Shown piece by piece: positions 2,598-48,893 of a stretch of DNA of 64,000 nucleotides. The translations under genes were made by a program, and so were the position numbers. The first letter of the stretch is position 1. Each line of letters begins with the position of its first letter. The notes beneath the pieces were generated by a model that was not told the origin of the DNA, made no database searches, and worked only from the letters and a program-made list of their open reading frames with translations. The DNA lies in IMG/VR virus record IMGVR_UViG_3300031867_000005, positions 96,001 to 160,000 of that record. One strand, given 5' to 3'. Origin of the DNA: a virus. Its lineage: Duplodnaviria; Caudoviricetes.

Positions 2598-2611
2598 AGG
2601 AGATGGTTTAT

Positions 2612-14000: not shown

Positions 14001-14119
14001 ATCTACCAGAAGAGTTCAAAACGACTTGCGATTATGGAGAGCTCTCTGCTCCGCCATTAATTGATTTTAAAGAATTATTTAGCAATGCTACTTATTATGG
14101 AGAGGATAATAATGGCTAA
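8030..14119 (+). CDS. ~2029-aa putative tail/baseplate structural protein with many TAG codons
   Basis: ORF fragments 8006, 8753, 9035, 12323, 13055, 13388 and 13814 all share one frame and all but the last end in TAG; spot-read stretches show only TAG stops; TAA at 14119. Confidence 0.75.
8615..8738 (+). repeat. 21-bp tandem repeat, about 6 copies, encoding (D/N)(N/D)SQENS
   Basis: gattcacaagaaaattctaat-like units. Confidence 0.9.
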
Positions 14120-15551
14120 TTTAGATAATTTAAAATAGTCTTCATTACAAAATTTTCTTGCTTCTTTAATTGGATAGTCAATTGACTCGGTTTCAAATAT
14201 CGTTTCTTCTATTTTAAATTTAGAAAAGACTCCTGATATTAAAAAATTATCTCCTTTATCAGAGTTAGATAATTATTGGAATGAAGGAATAAAAGAAATA
14301 ATGCATAATTATAAAGAACTTTATGATAATAATAAGATTTTTGATACAAATGAAGAACCTTACAACTCAATCTCAACGATAGGCATTAAAAACACTGACG
14401 CTTAGTATCAACAATCCTTAGATAAGAATTTTTCAAATTTTGTAATACCGTAGAAAAATTATAAAAATGATTATTATTCATCAGTTAGGGGAGAAGATTT
14501 TTTTATAAAAATTGCTAATGATAAAACTAATTTATAGTATACTAATGACAAAAGAAAGAATAATAGATTACTAATGCCAAAAAATTCTCGTAGAGTAGAA
14601 ATAGAAGATTTAAATAAAAATTTTTGGGTTATTAGTCAATAGTTAAGTATAATTTGTAATAGCTTATTTAATCCTAAATCTTATTAGAATAATATTATGA
14701 ATGGAATTATTAAGTAGATTTTAAAAATTTGGGATAGTATTTTACTTCTATGGATTGGAGTAAGTAAGGTATTCCAAAATAATATTTTAATATTTTTTCT
14801 TCCCATTTCTTTTAGTTCGAACAGTTTTGACAAGAGATTTGATAATATAGATTACGAAAAATATGATGAATCAATTGTTAATAAAGAAATTTACAATTAG
14901 TGTTATTTTCTTTGTAAAAAATATCAAAATAGTAATTTATTTATTTTTCCCTTACTTAGGGGCAATAATTATTATAAGAATTATTTTTCAAAAATAAAAA
15001 TTCCTTTTTACTATAAAAAGGAAAAGGGAAGTAATGAAATGATAAAAATAAATTAGGATGATGGCAAAGAAATTATTTCAATTGATATTGAAGAAACTGA
15101 ATTATTTAATTAGCAAAAGCTTTCTGAATAGCTTTATGGTTTTAGAGAAAAAGAATCTACTATGGAGTTTTATTATCCATTTAATAGAAATTTATCTAAT
15201 ATTGAAAAGCAAAAACTAATTAGAGATTAGATAAATGCCGGTGACGACAATAACTTAGAAATTGGTTTTTATTGTGCGATTAGAATAATTCCAAAAGTAG
15301 AACTGAATATGGATCCAGTTTAGGGACTAATTATAAAAAAAATCGATTTTGATATAATTGATTTAGTAGAAGAAATTTTAAACCAATCTCTTGAAGAACC
15401 TGAAAAAGTTATAAATGAATAGATTGTATTTTATAATAAAAAATACAGTGAAAAAATAGGTAATATTAGATTGATAGAGAAAAGTAATAACACTTATGGT
15501 CATTATATGGGAGAAGTTTTAAGTTGTAGAAAAGCGGTAAGAATTTATTAA
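14112..15551 (+). CDS. 479-aa paralog of the N-terminal part of the giant protein (TAG read as Gln)
   Basis: LLMPKNSRRVEIEDLNKNFWVISQ versus LLMPKYSKEIEVEDLNRNFWVISQ; start and TAA 15551 in frame; absent from the standard ORF track. Confidence 0.75.
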
Positions 15552-17487: not shown

Positions 17488-17521
17488 TTATATAGTAAAA
17501 ATGAAACGGAGGAAAATAAAA

Positions 17522-19648
17522 ATGGAGTTTAATGCAAGACAGAAAAAAGTAATTTATGCTGAAGAACCTAACATTTTATGCTTAGCCAGCGCTGCTTCAG
17601 GAAAGGCTATTCCAAATTCTACAATTATTCCTACTATTAATGGAGTGAAAAGAGTAGATGAGATAAAAAAGGGGGATTATTTGTTTGATAGAAATGGTAA
17701 TCCGACAAAAGTTTTAGGTGTTTTTCCGCAAGGAAAAAAAGAAGTATTTGAAATAACTTTTGGTGATGGGAGAAAGGCTAAATCATCAAAAGATCATATT
17801 TGGTTTGTGAATAAAAGAACTTGGAAAGACAAAAATCGTTATGAAGAATATACTATTGAAGAACTTTTAAAAGAAAAAATAATAGTTAATAGAGGAGGAA
17901 ATTTCTATATTCCTTGTGCTAAGCCAGTTCATTATCTAGAAAAAAAATATGAAATTCATCCGTATATAATTGGAGCTTTTTTAGGTGATGGGTGTTGTCT
18001 AGAAAAAGAATTAGTAATTTCTTCTGAAAATGACACAATTCCTAATCATATAAAAGAATTGCTTCAAGCAGATGAAATCCATCGAAATCCAGCTAATTAT
18101 AATTGGTATTTTAAAAAGGGAGGAGTCAATATTAAAAGTAACATTCTTCCAATTGAATTGAAAAAGTATAGTTATGAAAAAAGTATCCCCAAAGAATATA
18201 AATATGGTTCAATTGAACAAAGATTAGAATTAATTCGGGGATTGATGGATACTGATGGTTCAATATCAATAGATAAAAGAGAAAATCATTCTCCTTGCGT
18301 AAGTTTTACCTCTACAAGTTATCAATTAATTTTAGATGTAAAAGAGGTATTAGGCTCTTTAGGCTATGTCTCTACGATTTCAGAGGATAAGCGTTCAGAT
18401 AAATATACTAAGGGGATAGCATACAGTTTAAATATAAACATTTCAAATAGTGAAAAATATAAATTATTTTGGTTAAAAAGGAAAAAAGATATTGCTTTGT
18501 CTATCAAAAATAAAAAGCAACATAGAGATTATATGAAAACAACAATCAGAAAAATTGAAGATTTAGGTTTTTCAGAAGAAATGACTTGTTTTTATGTTGA
18601 TAATGCTGAACACTTATTTTTAATGAATGATTTTATTGTAACGCATAATACGAGTGTGCTAACCGAACGAATTAAGGTTTTAATCAACGAAAGAAATATG
18701 TCTCCAAGCGATATAGTTGCAATCACCTTTACTCGTATGGCAGCAGATGAAATGGTTAAAAGATTAGATGGGGTCGCTAATGGAGCTTTCATTGGTACAA
18801 TTCATTCCTATGCAAATAAAATCTGTGTTAGTAACAATATAGATACCCAAAAGTTCCTTGAATATGGAGAGTTTGATAAGATTCTAAAGAAAGCGAATAC
18901 CTTACCGTCCAGTAGATATTTCCAAATTAAACATCTCTTAGTTGATGAATGTCAAGACATTAGTCCATTAGAATATGCTTTTTTGGAAAAAATTCCATCT
19001 GAAAATGTATTTTTCTGTGGGGATAATAGGCAAATGATTTATGCTTTTAAAGGAACGACAGACGAATATTTGGTTAGTATGTATAGAGATGCGAATTATA
19101 AAAAATATTTTTTGACAGAAAATTATCGTAATGCGCCAAATATTTTAAAATTTGCTGATAGTTTAATTGCATCACATATTCAACTAAGTCCTAAATCGAT
19201 TCCAGTAAGAACAAAAGGTGGAGATGTTATTCAGGGAAGTTTTTATGAAGCTCTAGAAGAATTAGAATATTCTGAAAATTGGGGAAGCTGGTTCATTTTA
19301 ACCAGAACTAATGCAGAAATTATTCAAGTTCAAGAAATTTTAAATAAAAAGAAAATTCCAAACATTACCTTTAAAAAGGGCGACTTAGATTTGGAAGAAA
19401 TGGGACAATTAATGCAAAGTGATAGAGTCAAAATTCTCACGATCCACACATCAAAGGGACTTGAATCTAATAACGTGATTGTAATAGGAGCTAACCTATA
19501 TAATGAAGAAGAACGAAGGCTGGCATATGTTGCAGCTACAAGAGCTAAAAATTCACTTTATTGGTGTCCTTCAATAAAGAAAAGAAGAAAATATGATAAT
19601 GAAAATAAAAAAATCAATAGAACTAAAACTGATATTATAGAATTTTAA
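17522..19648 (+). CDS. UvrD/PcrA-like SF1 helicase containing an intein
   Basis: ASAASGK|T Walker A split by the intein; AITFTRMAA, GTIHS, VDECQD, GDNRQMIY, ENYR, TIHTSKGLE, YVAATRA. Confidence 0.9.
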   Translation: MEFNARQKKVIYAEEPNILCLASAASGKAIPNSTIIPTINGVKRVDEIKKGDYLFDRNGNPTKVLGVFPQGKKEVFEITFGDGRKAKSSKDHIWFVNKRTWKDKNRYEEYTIEELLKEKIIVNRGGNFYIPCAKPVHYLEKKYEIHPYIIGAFLGDGCCLEKELVISSENDTIPNHIKELLQADEIHRNPANYNWYFKKGGVNIKSNILPIELKKYSYEKSIPKEYKYGSIEQRLELIRGLMDTDGSISIDKRENHSPCVSFTSTSYQLILDVKEVLGSLGYVSTISEDKRSDKYTKGIAYSLNINISNSEKYKLFWLKRKKDIALSIKNKKQHRDYMKTTIRKIEDLGFSEEMTCFYVDNAEHLFLMNDFIVTHNTSVLTERIKVLINERNMSPSDIVAITFTRMAADEMVKRLDGVANGAFIGTIHSYANKICVSNNIDTQKFLEYGEFDKILKKANTLPSSRYFQIKHLLVDECQDISPLEYAFLEKIPSENVFFCGDNRQMIYAFKGTTDEYLVSMYRDANYKKYFLTENYRNAPNILKFADSLIASHIQLSPKSIPVRTKGGDVIQGSFYEALEELEYSENWGSWFILTRTNAEIIQVQEILNKKKIPNITFKKGDLDLEEMGQLMQSDRVKILTIHTSKGLESNNVIVIGANLYNEEERRLAYVAATRAKNSLYWCPSIKKRRKYDNENKKINRTKTDIIEF
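17606..18649 (+). mobile_element. 348-aa intein with LAGLIDADG homing endonuclease, Ala-1 (class 3-like)
   Basis: Begins AIPNST, ends VTHN/T; IIGAFLGDG and LIRGLMDTDG; W in block B, C in block F, T in block G. Confidence 0.9.
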
Positions 19649-25456: not shown

Positions 25457-26368
25457 ATGGAAGTATTAAGCTTATTTGATGGTATTTCAACTGGAAGACT
25501 AGCCTTACAAAAGGCTAATGTTTTAGTTGAGAATTATGCGGCATTTGAAATTAATCCTTTTGCAATTGAGGTATCTAAAAAGAATTGGCTCGATATTGAG
25601 CATTATGGAGATGTGACTAAAAATGATTTTAAAGATTTTATTGGTTACGACCTTTTAATTGGCGGAAGCCCTTGCCAAAGTTTAAGTAGTGCAAATGTTT
25701 ATCTAAAAGATGGGGAATATGGGGTTGAGGGAACTGGGAAAAGTAGACTTTTTTGGGAATATGTAAGAGCTATGAAAATTGTAAAGCCTAAATTTTTTCT
25801 TTTTGAAAATGTTGCATCTATGGCAAAGAAAGATAGAGAAATTATAACGAAAGAATTAGGGGTAAAACCAGTTAAAATTAATTCTTTAATCTTTTCGGCT
25901 TAGGTTCGAAATAGATTATATTGGACAAATATTCCTTTTAAAAAACCAACAGAAAGAATTGTAAATTATGAATTAAAAGACATATTAGAAGAAAAAGTAT
26001 TAGATAGATATTATTTGAAATAGGGAACATTAGACTTTATTACAAGACCATCAAACAATTATAATAATGGAAAGTTAGAAATTAATCCTATTTATGCACG
26101 TCCAATTACAGCTAGTATGTGGAGAACTCATAAAGCTGATGCAGATACGTATGTTAGCACAGAATATAAACCAGAAGGAAGAACCAATGTTAGAAAAATA
26201 ACTCCAGTAGAGGCTGAAAGGCTTCAAAATCTTCCTGATAATTACACTTATTTGAGTAATTATTCAATTCCTCAAAATGATAAGAATAGATATGAATGTA
26301 TTGGCAATGGTTGGACTGCTGATGTTATTGCCTATATTTTTAATGGGTTAAAGGAGGAAAAAGAATGA
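25457..26368 (+). CDS. C5-cytosine DNA methyltransferase (2 TAG read as Gln)
   Basis: LSLFDG, GGSPCQ, FENV, SA*VRNRLYWTN (family consensus SAQxRxRxYW), EAERLQ, IGNGW. Confidence 0.9.
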
Positions 26369-28850: not shown

Positions 28851-30344
28851 ATGAAGAAATTACTTTGTTTATTTACAAGTCTTTTAATGATTGGAATGTT
28901 TATGCCTTTAAAGGTTTTCTCAGAAGAAGGAATTGATTTACTGAATTATACAGATAAAGGAGAAATATTGGGAGTCGCTTCTGCATTTTCCATTTTTGTG
29001 GAAGAAGATTTCGGAGCTAATGGTTGTGATTGTGAGGGGCGCATTTATGCGGGTCACAGTGCCAATGTAGGGGAGAGTAGGTATTATAGCACTATATATG
29101 ATAATGGAGCTAGTGTTGTAATTGGAGATGGAATTTTAAGTAATTTTGATACAGGTCATAGAATTTTTGTTTATGGAACTCATGGTACAAATTTATTAGA
29201 GGGCGGCCAAGTCTATCAAGCTGACCTTTTTGATAAGGAAGAAACTTTCAGACAGTTAAAAAGAAAAAGTATTGAACTTTCTTATTATAAAGCCGGAGAG
29301 ATAAGAGTTAATGAAAATTGGAGTTCTCAAATTGACTTTATTGGAGAAGACCCTAAACTCAATGTCTTTAATTTAGACCCCAATGTGATTACTTCTTGTA
29401 ATTATTTCTTTAATTATGATGTTCCAGAGGGGTCATATGTAGTTGTAAATGTAAGCGGAAAAGAGAACACAGCTTACACGCAACTTTATGGAATGCAATA
29501 TGCGGGTCATCGTTCTACAAATAATAAAGATGAAATAAATAAAAGAATTCTTTTTAATTACTATGATACTGATAATTTGATACTCGCTGGCACAGGAACT
29601 TTTTATGGAACAATTCTAGCACCTTTTGCAAACGTAACTGATGATATTATTGAGGGGACACACTATACTGGAGGAATTATTGCTAAAAATTATTTAGGTG
29701 GTGTAGAATGGGGTAATTGTACTTTCGATGGAGGTGATAACTATAATGAAGTTATTAAAACAGAAGAAACTACTACTGCCATTTTTACTTCCAATACTCC
29801 AGCTAACACCACATCAGTATGTTCAACAGAGAGTAAAGGAACTACAGTTGGAGAATCAGCTACTAATACTAAAAATACAACCATTACTACACAAAGAGAG
29901 AAATATTCTACTACAATTACAACTTCAACAACAACAGATTTACCTATTACTTCAACAACCTCAGGAAATACTACAGAAACTTTCAAAAGGTCAGAAGTAT
30001 ATAATTCAACAACAGGAACAGAAACCACAAGATTCAGAACTACCTCTGGACTTAGAAGTAGCACAGAAACAACTCAAACTATTAGACCAAATAATGACAC
30101 GGCCGCAGCCAGTTCAACTAGTAGAGAAACCATCAGAATTGGAACTGATACAACAGAGACATCAACGTCTATTTCAACAGTGGCTACAATTACAGAAACA
30201 AATTCAAATGATAGTGAAGTAAGGAAGAATGGCGCGGCCGCCTCTGATTCTACTCGTATGCCTGCAAAAACAGAGGATAGAATTATCTTTGTGGGAATTG
30301 CGTTATTGATTGCGATTGTGGGATTGTTTATTACTAAGAAATGA
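28851..30344 (+). CDS. Cell-surface protein: signal peptide, choice-of-anchor-A-like domain, Thr/Ser stalk, sortase-like signal with TM
   Basis: DCEGRIYAG, VVVNVSG, ILFNY, GTILAPFA, GGIIA; C-terminal MPAKT, hydrophobic helix, KK. Confidence 0.75.
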   Translation: MKKLLCLFTSLLMIGMFMPLKVFSEEGIDLLNYTDKGEILGVASAFSIFVEEDFGANGCDCEGRIYAGHSANVGESRYYSTIYDNGASVVIGDGILSNFDTGHRIFVYGTHGTNLLEGGQVYQADLFDKEETFRQLKRKSIELSYYKAGEIRVNENWSSQIDFIGEDPKLNVFNLDPNVITSCNYFFNYDVPEGSYVVVNVSGKENTAYTQLYGMQYAGHRSTNNKDEINKRILFNYYDTDNLILAGTGTFYGTILAPFANVTDDIIEGTHYTGGIIAKNYLGGVEWGNCTFDGGDNYNEVIKTEETTTAIFTSNTPANTTSVCSTESKGTTVGESATNTKNTTITTQREKYSTTITTSTTTDLPITSTTSGNTTETFKRSEVYNSTTGTETTRFRTTSGLRSSTETTQTIRPNNDTAAASSTSRETIRIGTDTTETSTSISTVATITETNSNDSEVRKNGAAASDSTRMPAKTEDRIIFVGIALLIAIVGLFITKK

Positions 30345-30431
30345 TTAGGAAAGTCAAAGGCGAAATAAGTCTTTGACTTTTTTTTGTTTTTTATTATATA
30401 ATATAATAGTGATGAGGAAGAGATTGATTTG

Positions 30432-30528
30432 TTTGCTAAAAATTAAAAGTGAGCCATGAAATGGCGAACCAGCCCGCTTCCGCGCTGCTGCGGAAGCCTT
30501 TTCTGTTTACTCTTTCGGAAAAGAGTAA
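30432..30528 (+). repeat. 97-bp GC-rich three-hairpin element, copy 1
   Basis: 95/97 identical to 33404-33500; hairpins GCCAT/ATGGC, GCTTCCGC/GCGGAAGC, TTACTCTTT/AAAGAGTAA. Confidence 0.95.
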
Positions 30529-30534
30529 ATAAAT

Positions 30535-30643
30535 ATTATACAAAACTGAACAACCCATTATACTTTTTTGAACAACTCATTATACTTTTTTGAACAGTTC
30601 ATTATACTTTTTTTAACACCTATTATACTTTTTTGAACAATTT
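30535..30643 (+). repeat. Iteron-like 21-22-bp direct repeats, 5 copies (ATTATACTTTTTTGAACA)
   Basis: Direct repeats at two-helical-turn spacing upstream of an HTH gene. Confidence 0.85.
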
Positions 30644-30727
30644 ATGAAATTGTTCAGGACTGAACATTTTAGAGAAATAAGAGATAAGTAATACTTTAAA
30701 GTAGAATTAGTAAAAGAGGTGAAAATA

Positions 30728-31411: not shown

Positions 31412-31473
31412 TAAATAATTGACTTACCTTAAAAAATATGTTATACTAATTATAGTAAAGGGGGTAAAATAAA

Positions 31474-31767
31474 ATGAAATTCCACAAGGGAACTTTTTCA
31501 ATCCAAAAAGAAAACATACAAGGCAAGAGAAGTCTCGAAACAGTAATCGGTTGGATAGAAGAAACAAATTCTTACGGCTTCGACAACAGGAACGGAGAAT
31601 GGATTGCAACAGACCTTAACAGTGGCGTTATCCTTACAAAAGGTAAAACAAGAAAAGAATGTGTAGCTTGGATTGAGGAGAACTTAGCACTAATTAAGCT
31701 TCAAAAAACCAAACCACGTTATCGAGACCATGTTTCAAGCTTTAAGAAATTAAAAGGAGGAAATTAA
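31474..31767 (+). CDS. Hypothetical protein, paralog of 61021-61350
   Basis: Shared GWIxExNxYGF..WxATDLxSG..TRxxCVxWIE. Confidence 0.65.
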   Translation: MKFHKGTFSIQKENIQGKRSLETVIGWIEETNSYGFDNRNGEWIATDLNSGVILTKGKTRKECVAWIEENLALIKLQKTKPRYRDHVSSFKKLKGGN

Positions 31768-31769
31768 GT

Positions 31770-32669
31770 ATGGTTACTTTCATAATGGCTGTGGGAATTG
31801 CAGGAAGTGGAAAAGACTATCTCTACGCACATCATTACCTTTTACAACCAGAATATAAAGACCTCGTAATGGTTTCTTCTGATAACATTAGAGAAACTAT
31901 ATTCGGGGACATTAATGACCAAGCTCATAATAAGGAAGTCTTTGAAATTATGAGACAGCAAGCTCTTAAACTTTTAAAACAGGGGATTAGTGTTTATTAT
32001 AATGCTACCAACTTATCTTCTAAAAGACGAATCAATTTCTTAAAGGAAGTTTCTAAGATTCCTAATGTTAAAAAAATTTGTGCATTAAATGTGCCGCCCT
32101 TTGAAAAAGTTAAAGAACGTAATGCTGGTAGAATAAGAAAAGTTCCAGAAGAAGTTATTGAAAAAATGCTTAGAAAGTTCCAGCCGCCGCACCAATCGGA
32201 AGGATGGGATGAGATTGAAGTCTTTGGAAAAGACATGGACGGTCAAAAGACTTACGACATCGTTGCTACGGCAAATAAAATTCCTCACGATAATCCCAAT
32301 CACACTCTAACAATTGGCAAACATATGTATCAAGCTTATTTCTATGGTATTAGACAGGGGTTGCCACTTGACGTATGTGAGGCCGCATTGTGTCATGATG
32401 TAGGGAAGCCGCACTGCAAATCTTTTTATGATTATCGTGGAAGAAAAACTCGTAAGGCTCATTATTATTCTCATGATAGTGTCGGGGCATATATTTATTT
32501 ATCCCATTCCAATGGACTTGAACAAGATATAACTGTCGCCAATTTAATTGCTCATCATATGGATTTTTTTAAAGGGGAAAAATGTCTAACAAAAATCAAA
32601 AACCAATATGGAGAAGAGTTCTATAAAAAACTCGAACAGCTTCACGAAGCAGACATTAATGCTCATTAA
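31770..32669 (+). CDS. Polynucleotide kinase (AAA_33) fused to HD phosphohydrolase; RNA end-healing enzyme
   Basis: VGIAGSGK, SSDNIR, NATNL, RNAGRIRKVP; C-terminal HTLTIGKH, CHDVGKP, HYYSHD, HHM, LHEAD. Confidence 0.85.
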   Translation: MVTFIMAVGIAGSGKDYLYAHHYLLQPEYKDLVMVSSDNIRETIFGDINDQAHNKEVFEIMRQQALKLLKQGISVYYNATNLSSKRRINFLKEVSKIPNVKKICALNVPPFEKVKERNAGRIRKVPEEVIEKMLRKFQPPHQSEGWDEIEVFGKDMDGQKTYDIVATANKIPHDNPNHTLTIGKHMYQAYFYGIRQGLPLDVCEAALCHDVGKPHCKSFYDYRGRKTRKAHYYSHDSVGAYIYLSHSNGLEQDITVANLIAHHMDFFKGEKCLTKIKNQYGEEFYKKLEQLHEADINAH

Positions 32670-32768
32670 AAACTTGAAGAACTTTTTCTTGATAATTACT
32701 TAATAAAGGAGAGAAAATCTTAAAGGCACTTTCAGTAGTGCCTAATTTTATATAAAGGAGGTAAGATT

Positions 32769-33314
32769 ATGCCTAATAACGAACTTATTTATCCAGCTGA
32801 TTTGGCTCATAGAGATGGTTGTTGTGAAGTAAGACCAAGCACAAATACTTGTGGTTGCCCAAATGGTATCTATTGGATGCCGCCTCCACCAATGGATTAT
32901 CCCCCTGTCTTTCCATCAGTTCCTCCTTATCCAAATCCTAATCCATTTTCATACCCGCATCCCTGTCCTTGTCCTTCTGAAGAAATTCCAGTTAAAAAGA
33001 CTTCGATTGAAGGAAAAATTTGTAAGCTTTCAAAGAAAGCGGCCGCAGTCAATCGTATGATTGAAAATCTTGAAACTAAGAAAAAGGACTTTATTCTTAA
33101 AGCTGGGGATACAAGCTATAATTTTGGGAATGTTGATTTAGAGGTTGAGAATTGGGAAGATGGAAGCTATGCAGATACAGCTCTTAAAGTTTTAAAATTT
33201 GAGCTTTCTTTAATTAAGACAAAAATTGCAGATTTGTCTACATAGCTTGGAGAAGAAATTGATGATTCTGGTGGAACTGAGGGAACAGCTGCTGGAGATA
33301 CAACTGACCCGTAA
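32769..33314 (+). CDS. Pro/Cys-rich hypothetical protein (one TAG)
   Basis: ORF extends through TAG 33243 to TAA 33314, followed by a terminator. Confidence 0.6.
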
Positions 33315-33403
33315 GTTAGAGAAAAGTCAAAGCGAATTACTGCTTTGACTTTTTTCTTTTTTTATTATATAATATGATAGTAAGGGAAATAAAAATTGGT
33401 TGT

Positions 33404-33500
33404 TTTGCTAAAGATTAAAAGTGAGCCATGAAATGGCGAACCAGCCCGCTTCCGCGCTGCTGCGGAAGCCTTTTCTGCTTACTCTTTCGGAAAAGAGTAA
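33404..33500 (+). repeat. 97-bp GC-rich three-hairpin element, copy 2
   Basis: Near-identical to 30432-30528. Confidence 0.95.
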
Positions 33501-33506
33501 GATAAA

Positions 33507-33613
33507 TATTATCAAACTTTAGACAGTTCCATAACAAATTTTAGATAACTCCATAACAAATTTTAGACGCCCCCATAACAAATTTTAGATAGTCCATAAC
33601 AAATTTTAGATAC
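33507..33613 (+). repeat. Iteron-like 21-22-bp direct repeats, 5 copies (CCATAACAAATTTTAGA)
   Basis: Direct repeats with a different sequence from the 30535 array. Confidence 0.85.
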
Positions 33614-33683
33614 CGTATCGAAAAGATTATTTTTTTAGATTAAAAATTTTCTCTTTCTACTTATTAAATGGAGGTGATTAAGA

Positions 33684-41823: not shown

Positions 41824-41912
41824 GACAGATAAACTCAGACGGCTCTGAGCCTGTTCTTGAAAAACAGTGGTGCTATGAGGAGTGGCATAGAGGTCGGCAC
41901 TCTTGTCTGTCG
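41824..41912 (+). tRNA. tRNA-Ser(TGA)
   Basis: CTGTT-CTTGAAA-AACAG, long variable arm, GACAGA/TCTGTC acceptor. Confidence 0.75.
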
Positions 41913-41970
41913 TTTAAAGGTAAAATCCGCAAATAAAAAAAATTTTTATCTTGAAAAGGAGACTGATATT

Positions 41971-43479
41971 ATGAATTTTATTGATGCATTTGAAAGACAA
42001 GCTAATATGACTGAATCTGAAAAAGGCGGAGTTGTTTTTAAATCTGTCTCAAATCCACTTTTGGACTTATATTCTCATATTGGTGGAATGAGAAATAGAA
42101 ATGAGAATGATATTGTAAGTCAATGGTTGGAGGCAAGAATATTTGATAAGGAATTGGCAGATAACTTAATCCTCTATACTCGTGATTTTCGTAACACTGG
42201 TATTGGAGAACGAAAAATCGGTCGTATTCTTTTGAAAGAGCTTACAACAATTGACCCCCATAAAATTGAAAGAAACTTTCAAACAATTGTTGATGCCGGC
42301 AGATGGGATGATTTGTTTGTGTTTGTTGGAACTTCTGTCGAGAAAGAAATGTGGAACTTTATTGAAAAGCAATTACTTAGTGATGTTAAAGGAATGAAGA
42401 ATAAAGCTCCGATTTCTCTCTTAGGAAAGTGGCTGCCGTCTATCAATACCTCTAGCAAAGAAACACGTGCATTGGCTCGTAGAGCTTGTGTGCAGTTAAA
42501 TCTAACAGAACGCACTTACCGTAAAACTCTTTCTGCACTTCGTAAATACATTGGAGTTGTTGAGACTTTAATGTCAGCCGGCAAGTGGGATGAGATTAAC
42601 TTTGAAGCAGTTCCTTCAATTGCAATGTCTCGTTATATTAACACGTATAACAAACATTGTCAAGAAAGATTTGCAGAGTATAAGGCGGCTTTAGAAAAAG
42701 GCGAAGTAAAAGTTAATGCCGGAGCTTTAACACCAGCTGATATTTGTAAGAAATTCATTACTAATGGCGGCTATAAAGCATGGATAGATCATTGTTGGTA
42801 TGATGAGAAGCCAAGGGAAGTTAGGGGCGTTCTTGATGGAGTTGATATGGCTCAGTGGGGTGCTTTACCAAATTATGTAGAAGGGAATCAAGATGTTATC
42901 GTATTAAGTGATATTAGTGGGAGTATGGGAACTCCAAATTATGAACCGATTGCGGCCAGTGTTGGTTTGGCTACTTATTTCGCCCAGAGAAATAAGGGTG
43001 CTTATAAAAATCTTTTCATGGTATTTGCAAGTGACCCAGTTTTTATTAAAATCGAAGATATTTGGGATATTGAAAAATGTTTTTCTTACGTTTTAGGTCA
43101 ACAAATATCTTATTCAACAAATATGGATAGAGCCTTTAAAGCAATTTATGAAATGGCGCTTAAAACTCATGAAACACCTAAAGCAATTTGTGTTATAAGT
43201 GATGGAGAAATGGATAGATGGGTTCAAGATAAAGCTTCTGATTCAATTGTTTCTAAATGGAACAATGGTTTAATTGAAGCTGGACTTAATCCGATTAAAG
43301 TCATTTCTTGGAATGTGGCTAATCGTCATGATACAAATATTGCACCAGCTAGTGATTATGTTTCTTATTGTAGTGGTTTTTCTACAGGTTCTTTTGCGCA
43401 CTTCTCAAGTTTAATTAACAAAACAGCAGAAGAAGCGATGGTTGAGATTTTATCAAAGCCTCAATTTCAATGGAAGTAA
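41971..43479 (+). CDS. DUF2828 / TROVE(Ro60)-like protein with C-terminal vWA domain
   Basis: RDFRNTGIGERK, GRWDDL, LGKWLPS, YRKTLS, VPSIAM, SDISGSM (MIDAS), STNMD, ISDGEMD, WNV; RBS before ATG 41971. Confidence 0.8.
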   Translation: MNFIDAFERQANMTESEKGGVVFKSVSNPLLDLYSHIGGMRNRNENDIVSQWLEARIFDKELADNLILYTRDFRNTGIGERKIGRILLKELTTIDPHKIERNFQTIVDAGRWDDLFVFVGTSVEKEMWNFIEKQLLSDVKGMKNKAPISLLGKWLPSINTSSKETRALARRACVQLNLTERTYRKTLSALRKYIGVVETLMSAGKWDEINFEAVPSIAMSRYINTYNKHCQERFAEYKAALEKGEVKVNAGALTPADICKKFITNGGYKAWIDHCWYDEKPREVRGVLDGVDMAQWGALPNYVEGNQDVIVLSDISGSMGTPNYEPIAASVGLATYFAQRNKGAYKNLFMVFASDPVFIKIEDIWDIEKCFSYVLGQQISYSTNMDRAFKAIYEMALKTHETPKAICVISDGEMDRWVQDKASDSIVSKWNNGLIEAGLNPIKVISWNVANRHDTNIAPASDYVSYCSGFSTGSFAHFSSLINKTAEEAMVEILSKPQFQWK

Positions 43480-43512
43480 CAACTTGATGGCAATAGTCAT
43501 TGAGATATATTT

Positions 43513-43655
43513 GACCTTTTCAGCAACTCATTATATAATGATGAAAGAATGGTTTGAAGTTATCCCTAAACTTCGCTCATCTCCTAAAATCCCATGTGGT
43601 GAGGTCGAGTTACTATGATTCATCAGCATTTAAAATTTGAATAGGATTGAATCGT
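43513..43655 (+). ncRNA. Two further degenerate CAGCA-stem elements after the TROVE-like gene
   Basis: GACCTT-TT-CAGCAAC...GAGGTC and ATGATTCA-TCAGCAT...TGAATCGT. Confidence 0.45.
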
Positions 43656-43658
43656 GCG

Positions 43659-43700
43659 GCGATAGCAAAAATCTTAGGATGAATTGCTATCGTCTTTTTG
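43659..43700 (+). terminator. Rho-independent terminator
   Basis: GCGATAGCAA...TTGCTATCGT followed by a T tract. Confidence 0.7.
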
Positions 43701-43946
43701 CTTTAGAGAAAGACTTTTTTATTTTTATCTATTTTATATATTTTATATATTTCTCTACTAATTTTATTCCTATGAAACGGTAAAATCATTCCAAAACTAT
43801 GGAATAATTTTAGTAGAGGAAATGGTAAAGTTATTCCACTAGAATAACTTTTCCACCCCGTATTTTTATTCCACTTTTGAAAAAATTTTTCTTTTATTAG
43901 AGAAAATTTTTTCCTTTTCTACTTTTGGATGTAGGGAGGTGAAAAA

Positions 43947-44483
43947 ATGATTAGTTATCCAAACTAGAAACTCTATCATATAAAAAAGAAAATTGAGGAT
44001 GGTGATATTTTTATTATGTTAGGATGGGAAGATTACATTGCGGCGGCGAAAGAATTATCACCGTCTGCTTTGAATTTATATATGTATCTTGCAAAGAATC
44101 AGGACAATTATGAATTGTGGCTCAGTTCGAAAGATTATTGCAAGACTTTTAATGTAGTGGACAAGACATATCGAAACGCAAGGAACGAGTTGCTAAGAAA
44201 AGGCTACCTAAAAGAAGCCGAAAATAATCGTGTCTTTTTTGATTCTAAAGGTGGATACAAAGAGACTAAAGAGAATTTACAAGAAGAGTTAAAGTCCTTA
44301 GGGGAAAGACTAAAAGTAGAAGATGAAAAGAGATATATGAAATTAATGGAAGTCCTAAAGGATGCAAAGCTAAAAGAGATTCATGAAGAAGTTATTTATA
44401 AAATTGAAATAAAAAAAGTAATTTCTTTTGCACAAGACTTATTAAAAGAGATTAGTCAATCAGAGTTTGAGGGGTTATTCTAA
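43947..44483 (+). CDS. HTH initiator-like protein C (TAG at codon 7)
   Basis: MISYPN*KLY; LSPSALNLYMYLAKNQD...KTYRNARNELLRKGYL; preceded by an AT-rich tract and loose TTATTCCAC repeats. Confidence 0.65.
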
Positions 44484-44715
44484 AAAAGAGATATGTTTTC
44501 CCTAACCAAAAAGAATATTTGATTTTATTAAAAAAAAATGATATAATAAATATGTAAACAAAAGAAAACAGCTGAAAAAAAGGAGAAGATAATATGAATA
44601 TAATTTGTTCAATTTTTCTGGTTACTGAACTTATTTGTGCTCTTATCTGGTTAGGAGAATTACTCTATGAGATGTATGAGGACTACAAACTTAGAAAAGA
44701 GGAGGATGATAACCA

Positions 44716-46122
44716 ATGATATGGACTGTCATATATATTTTAGGCTTTATTTTAGCAATCTTAGGTGGAATAAATATAATTCGTTTCGATGGTTCAATTA
44801 AGCGAGCTACAGTTTGTTCAATAATGATTATGACAGGATTAGTTTTTATTATGTGGGGAGACAGTCAAAGAAAGAAAGTTCCAATTGATTATGAAGTTGT
44901 TCAGATTCAAGTGGTCGACCTTAATGATTCTAAGTATCGAGTAACTTTAAAGTCTGGAGTCAACTCTACTGTTATCTACGTAGATAAAGCAAAGGTTGGT
45001 ACAATTAAAGAGGGAGACACAATCGCTTTAACTAAAGAGGAATTAGAGGAGTTACAGTAATGAAAAGCAATATGATTTGGGCTGCAGCTGTTATCTTCCT
45101 GCTTTGTTTAGGCTTTGATAACAGCTATGCAGAAAATGAAAAGAAAAACATTCAAAGTAATCTTGCTTTATTTGAAACTTTTACTGCAAATGGGGGGAAT
45201 TTTAATTGTAGTGATGTTGAAAATATTAGTATTGATGTCCACACTTATACTGGAACTGATGTAGTATTCTATCTAAAAAATGGGGATAAGGTTTGTACAT
45301 CTGTTAATAAAATCATTTGGCATAATAATAAGGAGGATTAACTTGGAAATTTATACTTCTTACTTCTATCAAATTCGTTTCTTTAAACCTTACATGATTC
45401 CGCTCAGCACAGCTGTCTTTGACCCTAAGTGGTATCATGAATGGAAAGAACAAACGCACTTCTTTATTGATAAGAACGGAGTAATAAATGGCGGTCGGGC
45501 TTCAACGCTTGTCCCCAATCCAAATCTGATGAACTTATGTAGCGGTGTTGACAAATGTGAGGTTAGACAGAAAAATGAAAGAGCTGAGGATTTTTCTGAC
45601 TGTAAGTTCCTACATGACTATAAATACCAGCTTGACTGTCTTTTCTTTGGACAGTTCCTTTGTGATATTGAAAAAGTTAAACAACAAGCTACTAAAATCC
45701 TTCAGCTTGATAGAGAACCGATAATCGTTTTAATTGTTCATGAAACACCGGATAATCCTTGTAGTGAGAGGGTCGCAATTCTACAATGGCTTAAAGATAA
45801 TGCGGTCGACGCAAAAGAATTATCTTACCCAATCCCACAATATTATTGACTTTCTTTAAAATTTTTGTTATAATTATTATAATAGAAAGGGGGAATTAGA
45901 ATGAGAGTAAAAGCAAAAATTAAACCCGTAATCAAACCTGATTTTCAGTATCAATGTCCACATTGTGGTGAACTTATTGGTGGTTCTTCTCTTATGCCTG
46001 CTTATCATTTTAGAATTGACTGTTCTCCTGTTGAAACAGACTGTGATGTTATTTGTCCAAATTGTTGGGTTGGTGCGGATATAAAGATTTGGTGTGAAAA
46101 TAGAATTTGGGAAAAAAGATAA
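44716..46122 (+). CDS. Small genes: 44716-45060 membrane protein, 45060-45341 secreted protein, 45343-45849 DUF488-like, 45901-46122 Zn-ribbon
   Basis: RBS-led ORFs; IYTSYF...HETPDNPCSER in 45343. Confidence 0.55.
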
Positions 46123-46189
46123 GTTGACTTTTCTTAAAAATTATGATATAATTCTTTATAGAAAAGAAAAAAGAAAGGGGTATGATGTT

Positions 46190-47146
46190 ATGAAGCATTA
46201 TTTGGATATTAAGTATATGAAAGAGAAATACTCTGATTGTATGACAGTTGGGAATGAAATCGTTGTTGAGGAGAAAGTGGATGGTGCTCAGGCAAGTTTT
46301 ACTTTTTCTCCTTCTGAAAATTGTATCGAAGCTTTTTCTCGTAAAACTCAGCTCAATGAGATGAATAATCTTCGTGGATTTTATGAATGGACTCAACGTT
46401 TAGACGTTCAGGCAATTGGAAGAATTACTCACTTTGGTCGTTATATTATCTTTGGAGAATATTTATGTTCTCATACGGTTTCCTATCCACAAGACAAGTA
46501 TAATAAATTTTATATGTATGATGTGTGGGATACTGTTACAGAAAAATGGTTAGGCTTTAAACAGGTCAAAGCTTTATATGAACAATTGGCTAAAGCAGTA
46601 AGTCGAACTAATGAAGTAATTGAATTCGTTCCTGTGTTTTTTGAAGGGGCTTTTAATTCTTGGGAACATCTTCTTAGTTATGTCGGAAGAACTGAATTAG
46701 GAGCGTCCCCTTGTGGCGAAGGGATTGTAGTTAAGAATCAAACAACTCTGAATGATGAGAACTCTCGACTCCCTTTCTATATAAAAATTGTCAGTGAAAA
46801 ATTTAGTGAAGTGCATGAAGTTAAGCCAAAGAAAAATGTCAGTCCTGAAAAATTAAAAGAAAAAGAAGAAGAAAAACAATTAGTAATGTCAATTGTTACA
46901 AAACGTAGGGTTATTAAATTACTTGAAAAAATGGTAGACAATGGAGTTTTAAGGGAACGCTGGGATGAGAAAGATATGGGGTTAATTGCTAAGAACATTG
47001 GAAAACTCGTCTATGAGGATTGTGTAAAAGAAGAACCAGGGGTTGTTAGTCAATGTAAGAATTTTGGCAAGACAGCGAATAGTATTGCAATGACAATTGT
47101 TAGAGAGGAGTTGAAGACGAGATGGAAATTTTTGTCCGTTTTTTAA
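46190..47146 (+). CDS. RNA ligase, Rnl2-like
   Basis: EEKVDGAQ (motif I), FSRK, IFGEY, FYMYDV, GEGIVVK, YIKIVSEKFSE. Confidence 0.85.
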   Translation: MKHYLDIKYMKEKYSDCMTVGNEIVVEEKVDGAQASFTFSPSENCIEAFSRKTQLNEMNNLRGFYEWTQRLDVQAIGRITHFGRYIIFGEYLCSHTVSYPQDKYNKFYMYDVWDTVTEKWLGFKQVKALYEQLAKAVSRTNEVIEFVPVFFEGAFNSWEHLLSYVGRTELGASPCGEGIVVKNQTTLNDENSRLPFYIKIVSEKFSEVHEVKPKKNVSPEKLKEKEEEKQLVMSIVTKRRVIKLLEKMVDNGVLRERWDEKDMGLIAKNIGKLVYEDCVKEEPGVVSQCKNFGKTANSIAMTIVREELKTRWKFLSVF

Positions 47147-47771
47147 TCTACTTTATTATTGGACTGGCGGGCTTATTTGCGGCGATAGCAATACTTTTTA
47201 CGACTTTCTCTTATCTCATTCTTTTCATTATTGGAAAGGAATTTATCAAGGCGGCCGCAGTTATTGTCCTCATTTTTGTTGAAATTTTCGCAATTAACTA
47301 TTTACTTTATGACTACCACAGTGAGTAAGATATGGAAAATCTAAATTTTAATAATGAAAAAGTAATACAAATGTGGGATTCAATTTTTATCTGGGGTCGG
47401 AAAACTGGAGAACGTACCTGTTGTAAAACTCCAGCTTTATTGATTAACGTTCACTTAAAAGATTATTTCTGTTCTAATGAGTGTTTTGATGAGTATTATA
47501 AAGAAAAGTTAAATTGACTTTTCTTAAAAATTATGATATAATTTTTATAGTAAAAAGGAAAAGGAGAAAATTAATTATGATAAGAATTGAAATGAGAGCT
47601 GTGACAGCTCAGGGTTTTGGTGGAGAGGCATATTATAAGGAAATTTATACTTTGAAGAAAATAAGTCAGGAAAAACTCAATTGGATGAGACAACAATTTG
47701 CTATCAAATATAATGTAATGATTGATATGATTGAAGTTACTACTCAAACAACTGATTAAGGAGGAACTTGA

Positions 47772-48893
47772 ATGACTTTGAAGATTCAAGAGTTCATAAG
47801 AACTCATCCTAATTGGAAAGAGGAACTTTCCAGCTCTCCGTATAATCTTAGAATTTCTGAGGATGATGGCTTCTTTCTGTTTAAATACTCTCAAATTGAT
47901 TCTGACTTTAATGAGGAGATTTGTCGTGAAGCCAGAGGTTTAATTCTCGATTCTACAGATAATTTTAAAGTTGTTAGATTTGCGTTTAAAAAGTTCTTTA
48001 ACCTCGGAGAACAATACGCAGATGATATAGATTGGGATAATGCGGTCGGAAGTGACAAAATTGATGGAAGCTTAATGACACTCTGGTATGCTCGTGGCAA
48101 ATGGCGATTAAGCTCTAGTGGAACTGTCAACGCTTTTAAGGCTGCCCTCGCTAATTCTACTGTCTATAAAACATTTGGAGAATTGTTTGATGCGGCCGCT
48201 ACGAACGATGGTCTTGATATTAAGAGACTTAATCCTAATCACAACTATACTTTTGAACTTGTAAGCCCTTATAATCAAGTTGTTCTATCTTATCCAAAGC
48301 CTTCCCTCTATCATATTTCCACTCGTAGAATGGATACTTTAGAAGAGATTGAGGAATATATAGGAATACAAAAACCCAAATGTTATAATTTAAATTCTGA
48401 AACTGAATATCAAGACTTAGTATCACAAATGGGTGATGGTCATGAGGGAATCGTAGTAAGAGATAAAGAGGGCAATCGAGTTAAAATAAAAACGAAACGT
48501 TATTTTGAACTTCATCGACTTCATAATAACGGACAAATCAATCTTGAAAGAATTGTTGATTTAATTCAAGAGAATGATTACGAAGAACTTTTGTGCTATT
48601 ATCCTCAATATACAGATTACGTTATGAAAATAAAGAAGAGAATGGAAGAAGCTGGCGAACTTGTAGCTCAAATCGTTGAACAAACAGCTCAATGGAAAAA
48701 TGCAAACAATGTAACAGAAACTAATTCTCGTCAGCTCAAAGGATGTTTTGCTCAGCTTTACAAAAAAAATAAGTATTCCGCCCTCTACTTTTTGGCATAT
48801 GATAATAAAATCATGCAAATATTTGCGACCGCACCAACTAAGAGACTTATCTCCTTACTTCATCTTGACGAAAATGAAAATGAAAAAGAATAA
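47772..48893 (+). CDS. RNA ligase, T4 Rnl1-like
   Basis: CREARGLIL, FKKFFNLGE, DKIDGSL, TFELVSP, HEGIVV, RVKIK. Confidence 0.9.
   Translation: MTLKIQEFIRTHPNWKEELSSSPYNLRISEDDGFFLFKYSQIDSDFNEEICREARGLILDSTDNFKVVRFAFKKFFNLGEQYADDIDWDNAVGSDKIDGSLMTLWYARGKWRLSSSGTVNAFKAALANSTVYKTFGELFDAAATNDGLDIKRLNPNHNYTFELVSPYNQVVLSYPKPSLYHISTRRMDTLEEIEEYIGIQKPKCYNLNSETEYQDLVSQMGDGHEGIVVRDKEGNRVKIKTKRYFELHRLHNNGQINLERIVDLIQENDYEELLCYYPQYTDYVMKIKKRMEEAGELVAQIVEQTAQWKNANNVTETNSRQLKGCFAQLYKKNKYSALYFLAYDNKIMQIFATAPTKRLISLLHLDENENEKE

What the first reader, a model, noticed from the sequence alone, without database searches (positions are those of the whole stretch)
31770..48893. Complete TAG-free RNA healing and sealing kit around the split tRNAs: a splicing-gated genetic-code switch
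Seen: PNK-HD (31770), DUF2828/TROVE-like (41971), Rnl2-like (46190) and Rnl1-like (47772) genes are uninterrupted in the standard code and follow sigma-A promoters. Most structural and lysis genes and the initiator-like genes need TAG read-through. Established: Rnl1 and Rnl2 join 3'-OH to 5'-P RNA ends, and T4 Pnk/Rnl1 repairs anticodon-loop breaks. Inference: the early ligase(s) splice the suppressor, which then unlocks late genes. This would be a built-in delay timer, repurposing anti-defence tRNA repair as developmental control.
Basis: inference. Interest (0 to 1): 0.9.

Follow-up and report, generated by a model that had tools for sequence, protein, structure and literature searches.

The report
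Phage RNA-repair kit beside intron-split suppressor tRNA
A 179-kb phage that reads the stop codon TAG as glutamine carries its only TAG-reading tRNA gene split by a small tRNA-shaped intron. It also encodes TAG-free RNA-repair enzymes that could rejoin the tRNA, so the code switch probably depends on RNA ligation, but nothing shows this is an evolved timer.

Summary
Pnk-HD (31770), a Ro60/TROVE-fold DUF2828 protein (41971), an Rnl2-type ligase (46190) and an Rnl1-type ligase (47772) are intact, TAG-free and sit behind consensus sigma-A-like promoters. 88 of 165 ORFs in the genome need TAG read-through, and TAG means Gln.

Three tRNAs are split in the anticodon loop by 48-64-nt mini-tRNAs that end in NCCA: Ile-UAU, Leu-UAA and the genome's only CUA suppressor. 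Removing each insert, from its first acceptor base through CCA, restores a canonical tRNA.

The design recurs in many related phages. Orthologous suppressor genes show a clean presence/absence of the insert, and some relatives carry whole tRNAs nested inside other tRNAs.
- All 15 insert-bearing records that are at least 30% complete have an RNA-ligase hit.
- Two ligase-less genomes scanned in full have no inserts.

The likeliest route is that tRNA end-processing nucleases excise the insert and a phage ligase reseals the loop. In that case TAG decoding here needs ligation.

The "timer" reading is weak. Most relatives have uninterrupted suppressors, the inserts sit in many kinds of tRNA, and the kit also occurs where no insert was found. 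The suppressor and the ligases share one promoter class. No splicing data were obtainable.

This scan has already flagged tRNA-shaped introns in at least 13 other genomes.

The parts
31419..31447 (+). sigma-A-like promoter (TTGACT-17-TATACT with TG) before the small ORF 31474-31767 and Pnk-HD
31770..32669 (+). Pnk-HD: N-terminal 5'-OH polynucleotide kinase (P-loop GIAGSGK, SSDxxR) and C-terminal HD phosphoesterase; TAG-free
   Evidence: Pfam; PDB match to the Clostridium thermocellum Pnkp kinase domain; PHROG polynucleotide kinase
36678..36706 (+). sigma-A-like promoter before tRNA-Gln(UUG) 36741-36813 and the split tRNA-Ile
   Evidence: tRNA
36817..36958 (+). tRNA-Ile(UAU) split after CUUA by a 64-nt tRNA-like insert (36853-36916) that ends in ACCA
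   Evidence: detector; the insert alone scores 34.8 bits on Rfam tRNA; the spliced form is called tRNA-Ile(tat); anticodon arm identical to the L043 Ile-UAU
37440..37468 (+). sigma-A-like promoter directly before the split suppressor
37505..37631 (+). amber suppressor tRNA(CUA) with a U1-A72 pair, split CUC|UAAC by a 51-nt mini-tRNA (37540-37590) that ends in TCCA; the only CUA tRNA in the genome
   Evidence: aragorn -i; detector; the spliced form is called tRNA(cta); genome-wide search
39174..39271 (+). weak Y-RNA-like (YrlA) match, below the family cut-off
   Evidence: 26.8 bits against a gathering score of 69; E 0.014
39293..39425 (+). tRNA-Leu(UAA) split after CUUA by a 48-nt mini-tRNA (39329-39376) that ends in ACCA
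   Evidence: Rfam tRNA 38.9 bits across the whole gene; matches uninterrupted Leu-UAA genes of relatives
41417..41445 (+). sigma-A-like promoter before the tRNA-like elements and the DUF2828 gene
41971..43479 (+). DUF2828/DUF7788 protein with a Ro60/TROVE plus vWA fold; TAG-free
   Evidence: Pfam; homologues are about 502 aa; AF2 model pLDDT 90.6; the top 12 Foldseek hits are all Ro60/TROVE, including a Thermus phage Ro60
46124..46152 (+). sigma-A-like promoter before the Rnl2-type ligase
46190..47146 (+). Rnl2-type ATP-dependent RNA ligase (PF09414), motif I KVDG; TAG-free
47514..47542 (+). sigma-A-like promoter before the small ORF 47577-47759 and the Rnl1-type ligase
47772..48893 (+). Rnl1-type RNA ligase (PF09511), motif I KIDG aligned to the T4 Rnl1 active-site position; TAG-free

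Best explanation
The four genes are a phage RNA-repair module made from host-type early promoters in the standard-code part of the genome. It comprises a Ro60-like RNA binder, a Pnk-HD end healer, an Rnl2-type ligase and an Rnl1-type ligase.

The neighbouring tRNA cluster holds three tRNAs whose anticodon loops are interrupted by tRNA-shaped introns: Ile-UAU, Leu-UAA and the sole amber suppressor CUA. Each intron has an acceptor stem, a T-arm and an NCCA end.

Most likely mechanism (inferred):
1. Host RNase P cuts at the 5' side of the inner acceptor stem.
2. An endonuclease cuts just after the inner CCA.
3. The two halves of the outer tRNA stay held together by the cloverleaf, with 3'-OH and 5'-phosphate ends.
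4. A phage ligase seals them. The Rnl1 type is the natural candidate because its T4 relative seals broken anticodon loops.

If so, reading TAG as Gln, which half of the phage's ORFs need, requires RNA ligation in this phage.

The dependence looks like a lineage-specific consequence of a mobile or heritable intron family landing in the suppressor gene. It does not look like a conserved developmental timer. The kit probably also keeps its classical role of repairing cleaved tRNAs.
For: Shown:
- Gene identities and catalytic motifs and the Ro60 fold.
- TAG means Gln. TAG sites of the endolysin align with Q in 17/19, 14/19 and 11/19 homologues. One TAG falls in the C5-methyltransferase motif [TAG]-V-R-N-R.
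- The sole CUA tRNA is the split one. CheckV rates the genome 100% complete, and the search is.
- 17 mini-tRNA inserts in the window and relatives share one plan. Their acceptor stems differ in sequence but stay paired, with 3-5 pair types at most positions.
- 21 of 34 ARAGORN intron calls, which ignore intron shape, end in NCCA.
- Removing each insert, first acceptor base through CCA, gives loops with U33 and R37 and default ARAGORN tRNA calls. These match uninterrupted tRNAs of relatives.
- L018 and L021 differ from L030 at the orthologous suppressor by exactly that 51-nt unit.
- Complete canonical tRNAs lie nested in the anticodon loops of other tRNAs in L048, L056, L057 and L068. Their own maturation must cut the outer tRNA.
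- Ligase hits occur in 15 of 15 insert-bearing records that are at least 30% complete, 14 of them above the curated cut-off. None of the 8 ligase-less records shows an insert; Fisher one-sided p = 0.037, not corrected for relatedness.
- Two near-complete ligase-less genomes scanned in full have 27 tRNAs, uninterrupted CUA suppressors and no mini-tRNA insert.
- In both lineages with a split suppressor (the window and G009/G011), Rnl1 and Pnk-HD have no internal stop.
- The phage has no RtcB, EndA, RNase Z-like or CCA-adding gene, so host enzymes must do the cutting.
Against: - No RNA data.
- The enzyme for the 3' cut is unknown. The introduction of PMC7479834 states that CCA suppresses Bacillus subtilis RNase Z, while Thermotoga maritima RNase Z cuts just after CCA. 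The host here is unknown.
- Ligases and Pnk-HD are nearly universal in this phage group, also where no insert was found (about 25 records). The association is therefore weak and confounded by shared ancestry.
- Neither ligase family is necessary on its own. G009 has only Rnl1; G032 and G037 have only a PF09414-type ligase.
- Inserts were sought only within 10 kb of the DUF2828 gene in most records.
- The suppressor has an unusual T-loop (AUCGUGG).
Confidence: 0.55

Rival explanations
1. One reading: splitting the suppressor is an evolved delay timer. Early ligase accumulation sets the moment when TAG-bearing late, lysis and initiator genes can be translated.
For: - The sole suppressor is split.
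- The ligases and Pnk-HD are TAG-free and lie behind early-type promoters.
- TAG is 18 per 1000 codons in late genes against 1 in early genes. The codons read by the two other split tRNAs are also richer in late genes: ATA 26.7 against 14.7 and TTA 41.6 against 29.1 per 1000.
Against: - 22 related loci have uninterrupted CUA suppressors, against 2 with an insert. L030 lacks the insert that its close relative L018 has.
- The same inserts occur in many tRNA types unrelated to the code switch.
- The suppressor promoter (37440) is of the same class as the ligase promoters.
- Late blocks lack these promoters, so late genes are presumably already delayed at the level of transcription.
- The ATA and TTA enrichment can follow from the lower G+C of late genes.
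Confidence: 0.12
2. The kit serves only classical counter-defence and RNA quality control: repair of tRNAs cut by host anticodon nucleases, with Ro60-like surveillance. The introns are removed and the exons joined by other enzymes, so the neighbourhood is coincidental.
For: - Pnk-HD plus ligase is the canonical healing-and-sealing set for 5'-OH and 2',3'-cyclic-phosphate ends. RNase P-type cuts would not produce such ends.
- The kit is present in about 25 relatives without a detected insert.
- Pnk-HD tracks the ligases closely.
- Ro60-like plus a Y-RNA-like element resembles bacterial rsr-yrlA-rtcB repair operons (from memory).
Against: - No other RNA ligase family (RtcB) is encoded by the phage.
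- RtcB-type host ligases need 3'-phosphate and 5'-OH ends, not RNase P-type ends (established enzymology).
- Every insert-bearing record has an ATP-dependent RNA ligase hit, and ligase-less genomes have no inserts.
Confidence: 0.2
3. The split tRNA genes are dead genes or decoys, and TAG is decoded some other way (a host suppressor, or release-factor interference).
For: - The suppressor has an odd T-loop.
- MFE folding of the precursor is no better than that of shuffled sequence (z = -0.5).
- No expression data exist.
Against: - The insert architecture is conserved, with compensatory changes across phages whose DUF2828 proteins are only 45-60% identical.
- Exact reconstitution of canonical loops and tRNA calls.
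- No other CUA tRNA in a complete genome in which 88 ORFs carry TAG.
- Relatives decode TAG with phage CUA tRNAs that share the U1-A72 pair.
Confidence: 0.05

Closest known systems
T4 Pnkp / Rnl1 (and Rnl2) tRNA repair against the PrrC anticodon nuclease
   Same: Phage-encoded kinase-phosphatase plus Rnl1-type and Rnl2-type ligases. The KxDG lysine motif is present, and the substrate class would be a broken anticodon loop.
   Different: The healing enzyme is a Pnk fused to an HD phosphoesterase, not the T4 Pnkp phosphatase fold. The break proposed here is programmed: excision of an encoded insert that leaves 3'-OH and 5'-phosphate ends, not a host attack. A Ro60-like gene is part of the block.
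'Enigmatic' tRNA introns of Lak megaphages (Devoto et al. 2019, PMC6784885)
   Same: Introns in phage tRNA genes of a TAG-recoded phage. One intron 'itself may encode a tRNA', and alleles with and without the intron exist.
   Different: That paper names no mechanism and no link to ligases. Here the insert family is defined (acceptor stem, T-arm, NCCA, exact boundaries), it hits the suppressor itself, and it co-occurs with RNA ligase genes.
Stop-codon-recoded phages with suppressor tRNAs and 'code change modules' (Borges et al. preprint, 10.1101/2021.08.26.457843)
   Same: Low-GC phage, TAG read as Gln, recoded late and lysis genes, standard-code early genes, phage suppressor tRNA.
   Different: The suppressor is invisible to standard tRNA callers because it is split. 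That survey found TAG suppressors in only 40% of TAG-recoded genomes, a gap that split suppressors could partly fill.
Enzymatic tRNA splicing of archaea and eukaryotes (EndA/TSEN plus RtcB, or Trl1 healing and sealing)
   Same: Protein-dependent removal of a short anticodon-loop intron, followed by ligation. Trl1 combines kinase, phosphoesterase and ATP-dependent ligase activities, as this kit does.
   Different: No bulge-helix-bulge motif: the 5' site abuts a 6-7-bp helix, and the 3' site follows NCCA. The phage has no EndA or RtcB. The insert position varies from 32/33 to 35/36.
Bacterial rsr (Ro60) - Y RNA - rtcB/rtcA RNA repair operons
   Same: A Ro60-fold protein and tRNA-like or Y-RNA-like elements lie next to RNA end-healing and sealing genes.
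   Different: ATP-dependent Rnl1 and Rnl2 ligases in place of RtcB. The Y-RNA match is weak (26.8 bits). The Pfam TROVE model is not matched; the resemblance is by fold only.

Membership tests
Rnl1 (T4 RnlA, PF09511) | Pfam model matched above its curated cut-off | tested here: met
   50.9 bits against 28.3; PHROG 562 covers residues 30-348 of 373
Rnl1 (T4 RnlA, PF09511) | Motif I lysine (KxDG) at the adenylylation site | tested here: met
   KIDGS aligns with the T4 Rnl1 active-site segment (M/K)EDGS of 5tt6
Rnl1 (T4 RnlA, PF09511) | Seals 3'-OH and 5'-phosphate breaks in tRNA anticodon loops | not testable with these tools
   needs an enzyme assay
Rnl2-type ligase (PF09414) | Pfam model above its cut-off and a motif I KxDG | tested here: met
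   81.2 bits against 27; KVDG and EGIVVK are visible in the translation; no PDB relative by sequence
5'-OH polynucleotide kinase with HD phosphoesterase | P-loop, catalytic Asp/Arg segment and HD domain | tested here: met
   GIAGSGK and SSDxxR align with the C. thermocellum Pnkp kinase domain; HD 28.6 bits against 22. The domain order is Pnk then HD.
Ro60 / TROVE | TROVE ring plus vWA fold | tested here: met
   AF2 pLDDT 90.6; Foldseek ranks 1-12 are Ro60/TROVE, E 4e-8 to 1e-4, TM 0.35-0.57
Ro60 / TROVE | Sequence membership (Pfam TROVE) and a cognate Y RNA | tested here: inconclusive
   Pfam gives only DUF2828 and DUF7788; the profile found no Ro60 in the PDB by sequence; the YrlA match is below its cut-off
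tRNA-shaped (mini-tRNA) anticodon-loop introns of phages | Insert runs from the first acceptor base to NCCA, has a 12-bp acceptor/T stack and a 7-nt T-loop, and its removal restores a 7-nt loop with U33 and R37 | tested here: met
   three inserts in the window and 14 in relatives; spliced forms called as tRNAs; presence/absence allele
Archaeal/eukaryal bulge-helix-bulge introns | BHB motif at the splice sites and an EndA-family endonuclease | tested here: not met
   by direct reading, the splice sites flank a 6-7-bp helix plus NCCA; no PF01974 and no RtcB in the genome
Group I introns in tRNA genes | Catalytic core of about 200 nt or more, matched by Rfam | tested here: not met
   the inserts are 48-64 nt; Rfam finds only tRNA and a weak YrlA match
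TAG-to-Gln recoded phages | In-frame TAG at Gln positions of conserved proteins, plus a CUA tRNA | tested here: met
   the CUA tRNA exists only after in-silico splicing

The most novel reading that the evidence does not exclude
Bacteriophages use a protein-enzymatic tRNA splicing route not described for bacteria. Ordinary tRNA end-processing nucleases release a tRNA-shaped intron, or a whole nested tRNA, from an anticodon loop, and a phage ATP-dependent RNA ligase reseals the outer tRNA. In this phage that route is obligatory for making the only amber suppressor. RNA ligase would then license translation of half the genome, and intron-hidden suppressors would explain part of the 'missing suppressor' problem of recoded phages.
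Probability: 0.45. Interest if true: 0.85.

Novelty: new variant of a known kind. Interest (0 to 1): 0.7.

Why it matters
Enzymatic, ligase-dependent tRNA splicing is textbook for archaea and eukaryotes but not for bacteria or their viruses. If the proposed route is real, three things follow.
- It gives phage Rnl1 and Rnl2 a housekeeping role beyond counter-defence.
- It makes the genetic-code switch of a recoded phage depend on one enzymatic step that is easy to test with an amber reporter.
- It suggests that standard tRNA callers miss suppressors in recoded phages; the published survey found TAG suppressors in only 40% of TAG-recoded genomes.

Whole tRNAs nested inside other tRNAs in relatives are a clean natural experiment for the mechanism.

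Tried and rejected
Searches that led nowhere:
- The search for related loci with the single DUF2828 protein found nothing. An alignment was needed.
- Exact-pattern scans for an intron-less or intron-bearing copy of this particular suppressor found nothing in viral contigs. The two metagenome hits are chance matches, not tRNAs.
- The isolated-phage collection holds no close relative of the tRNA block.
- PDB sequence searches gave nothing for the Rnl2-type ligase or the PAPS-reductase-like protein.

Methods that fell short:
- MAFFT right-aligned the inserts (A2), so the 5' acceptor strands were out of register. I therefore built no covariance model and counted pairs with my own script. That detector requires pairing, so only the diversity of pair types is informative, not the percentage paired.
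- MFE folding supports the outer cloverleaf and the insert helix only modestly (z = -0.5, -2.5 and -3.5).

Readings rejected:
- ARAGORN's anticodon calls for the split genes (Ser-CGA, Leu-CAA, Met-CAT). Its intron boundaries are arbitrary within 1-3 nt, break the first pair of the insert helix, and the supposed 'Ser' has a 4-nt variable region.
- Group I, BHB/EndA and RtcB routes.
- A phage-encoded RNase Z-like or CCA-adding enzyme.

Full report
**What the window is.** The window is bases 96001-160000 of a 178,685-bp virus record that CheckV rates 100% complete. G+C is about 31% and almost all genes are on the + strand. Reading TAG as sense raises + strand ORF coverage from 39.0 to 54.1 kb, and one ORF (7979-14119) holds 39 in-frame TAGs.

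Genome-wide, 88 of 165 ORFs of at least 90 aa contain TAG. The density is 13-24 per 1000 codons in the late blocks and 0.4-2 in window 34-64 kb.

TAG means glutamine.
- In the amidase endolysin 5955-7061, three of the five TAG sites align with Q in 17/19, 14/19 and 11/19 full-length homologues.
- One TAG of the C5-methyltransferase falls in the motif [TAG]-V-R-N-R. From memory, this is the QxRxR motif of bacterial enzymes.

**Observation check.**
- The Rnl1-type protein has KIDG aligned to the T4 Rnl1 active site.
- The Rnl2-type protein has KVDG.
- The kinase domain aligns with the Clostridium thermocellum Pnkp kinase, including the P-loop and the SSDxxR segment.
- The DUF2828 protein, modelled at pLDDT 90.6, hits only Ro60/TROVE structures in Foldseek ranks 1-12. 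'TROVE-like' is therefore supported by fold, though not by the Pfam TROVE model.

None of the four has an in-frame TAG.

Near-consensus TTGAC-N17-TGnTATAAT sites are dense from window 33.3 to 63.4 kb and rare in the late blocks. They lie directly upstream of the two ligases, the DUF2828 block, the Pnk-HD operon and the split suppressor.

Two caveats apply. TAG-freedom is the rule for the whole early block, so it does not single these genes out. One endolysin-like ORF (2603-3370) is TAG-free.

**The split tRNAs.** Default ARAGORN finds 8 tRNAs and no CUA anticodon. With introns allowed it finds 37505-37631 and 39293-39425. A third, 36817-36958, shows up with my detector and at a lower ARAGORN threshold.

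In each gene a 5-bp anticodon stem encloses a short 5' loop piece, then an insert, then the rest of the loop. The insert has a 6-7-bp helix, a connector, a 5-6-bp stem with a 7-nt loop, the 3' strand of the first helix and NCCA. In other words, the insert is the top half of a tRNA.

Deleting the insert from its first paired base through CCA gives the loops CUCUAAC (anticodon CUA), CUUAUAA (UAU) and CUUAAAA (UAA). Default ARAGORN then calls all three as ordinary tRNAs.

Rfam's tRNA model scores the 64-nt Ile insert itself at 34.8 bits, and the whole split Leu gene at 38.9 bits.

The CUA tRNA has a U1-A72 pair, as do the uninterrupted CUA and Gln tRNAs of relatives. No other credible CUA tRNA exists in the genome.

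**Comparative evidence.** DUF2828 homologues are common on metagenomic phage contigs of 100-190 kb. An alignment of them retrieved 80 IMG/VR loci.

ARAGORN, which does not look at intron shape, called 34 intron-bearing tRNAs there, and in 21 of them the intron ends in NCCA. My detector recovered 17 mini-tRNA inserts, against about 6 hits expected from shuffled sequence of the same size. The inserts have different acceptor-stem sequences but preserved pairing.

T-loop subtypes follow the host tRNA across divergent phages:
- GGCAG in Leu and the suppressors;
- TGCAA in Pro and Gln;
- TTCRA in others.

This points to inheritance under a constraint on shape.

At the orthologous suppressor gene, L018 and L021 differ from L030 by exactly the 51-nt unit, with conserved flanks.

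In L048, L056, L057 and L068, complete canonical tRNAs lie in the anticodon loops of other tRNAs: Phe in Arg-UCU, Asp in Asn, and Asn in Lys. Both the inner tRNA and the spliced outer tRNA are called as normal tRNAs. Maturation of the inner tRNA must sever the outer one, which is the strongest sequence-level argument for excision by tRNA end-processing enzymes.

**Co-occurrence with ligases.** I searched whole records for PF09511, PF09414 and the Pnk-HD protein.
- All 15 insert-bearing records that are at least 30% complete have an RNA-ligase hit. Fourteen are above the curated cut-off and one scores 22.9 bits.
- Eight records have no hit, and none of them shows an insert.
- The uncorrected one-sided Fisher p is 0.037. 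The records are related, so this is weak evidence.
- Two ligase-less genomes (98% complete) fetched in full have 27 tRNAs, including uninterrupted CUA suppressors, and no mini-tRNA insert.
- Neither ligase family is required on its own. G009, which has a split suppressor, has only Rnl1. G032 and G037 have only a PF09414-type enzyme.
- G015 has an insert but no Pnk-HD homologue, which hints that healing is not essential.
- In both lineages with a split suppressor, the ligase and Pnk-HD frames are stop-free. In G005, whose suppressor is intact, both carry a TAG. This is consistent with the logic but rests on very few cases.

**Mechanism.**

Shown:
- the architecture of the inserts and their exact boundaries;
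- that the ligases are intact;
- that the phage has no EndA, RtcB, RNase Z-like or CCA-adding gene.

Inferred:
- RNase P cuts 5' of the inner acceptor stem. A 12-bp acceptor/T stack with 3' NCCA is its minimal substrate (established knowledge).
- An endonuclease cuts after CCA.
- The resulting 3'-OH and 5'-phosphate ends, held in the outer cloverleaf, are sealed by the Rnl1-type ligase or, failing that, the Rnl2-type ligase.

The 3' cut is the weakest step. The introduction of PMC7479834 states that CCA suppresses Bacillus subtilis RNase Z, whereas Thermotoga maritima RNase Z cuts just downstream of CCA. The host here is unknown.

If a metal-independent nuclease makes the 3' cut instead, Pnk would be needed to phosphorylate the 3' exon. 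That would fit the tight Pnk-ligase linkage.

**The gating idea.** If the inserts must be removed, TAG decoding in this phage depends on ligation. The evidence does not support a dedicated timer.
- Relatives overwhelmingly keep uninterrupted suppressors: 22 loci against 2.
- The inserts occur in many tRNA types.
- The kit is present without detected inserts in about 25 records.
- The suppressor and the ligases share one promoter class.
- Late genes are richer in all three codons served by the split tRNAs, but their lower G+C can explain the ATA and TTA difference.

**Prior knowledge.** Devoto et al. 2019 reported 'enigmatic' introns in Lak phage tRNAs, one of which may itself encode a tRNA, and offered no mechanism. 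Borges et al. found TAG suppressors in only 40% of TAG-recoded phages and suspected non-canonical tRNAs.

Four full-text searches found no paper that proposes or tests RNase P plus ligase splicing of phage tRNAs. The library is incomplete, so this is not proof of absence.

Earlier notes of this scan describe the same insert type in at least 13 other genomes.

**Verdict.** The kit is an ordinary member of a known kind. What is new is that it stands beside an intron-split amber suppressor in a recoded phage, with comparative support for a ligase-dependent, tRNA-shaped-intron splicing route. The link is plausible and easy to test, but unproven, and the adaptive 'timer' reading is unlikely.

Noticed in passing
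L048:19695-19770; L056:16127-16201; L057:14977-15053; L068:6146-6221: Complete canonical tRNAs (Phe-GAA, Asp-GUC, a 77-nt tRNA, Asn-GUU) lie nested exactly in the anticodon loops of other tRNAs (Arg-UCU, Asn-GUU, Asn-GUU, Lys-UUU). Inner and spliced outer genes are both called as normal tRNAs.
   Followed up: partly
window 38993-39049: Rfam tRNA match (42.6 bits) that covers only model positions 8-63, with a GUA (Tyr-like) anticodon loop. No acceptor stem is evident next to it, so this may be another non-canonical or tRNA-like element.
   Followed up: no
window 39174-39271 and 41622-41819: Weak YrlA (Y RNA-like) match, and tRNA-like elements just upstream of the Ro60-fold gene. This suggests a phage Ro60/Y-RNA pair.
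   Followed up: partly
window 37801-38098: About 300 nt without an ORF between tRNA-Lys and tRNA-Gly, with no Rfam match. It may be a structured RNA co-transcribed with the tRNAs.
   Followed up: no
window 25457-26365: C5 DNA methyltransferase whose best PDB matches are DNMT3-family catalytic domains (E about 1e-27). It has two in-frame TAGs, one at the conserved [Q]-x-R-x-R position.
   Followed up: partly
G005 (record of L012): 13832-14425 and 29739-30689: In this relative, the Rnl1-type gene and the Pnk-HD gene each carry one in-frame TAG. Its CUA suppressor is uninterrupted.
   Followed up: no
L077:15963-16079; L079:15121-15237; L080:15748-15864; L082:17346-17462: A different kind of ARAGORN 'intron': a 34-nt hairpin insert without CCA, containing AACAGC, in a tRNA-like gene and conserved across four records. 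It is not of the mini-tRNA family.
   Followed up: no
window 2603-3370 versus 5955-7061 and 7184-7594: Three lysis-type ORFs. The first (endolysin-like) is TAG-free; the amidase endolysin and the peptidase-like ORF carry 5 and 2 TAGs.
   Followed up: partly
window 28851-30341: TAG-free 497-aa protein with a putative ice-binding-like adhesive domain (pAdhesive_15, E 1e-32). This is unusual cargo in a phage.
   Followed up: no
window 17501-19645: TAG-free 715-aa ORF inside the TAG-rich region. It matches both terminase-large-subunit and helicase PHROGs.
   Followed up: no
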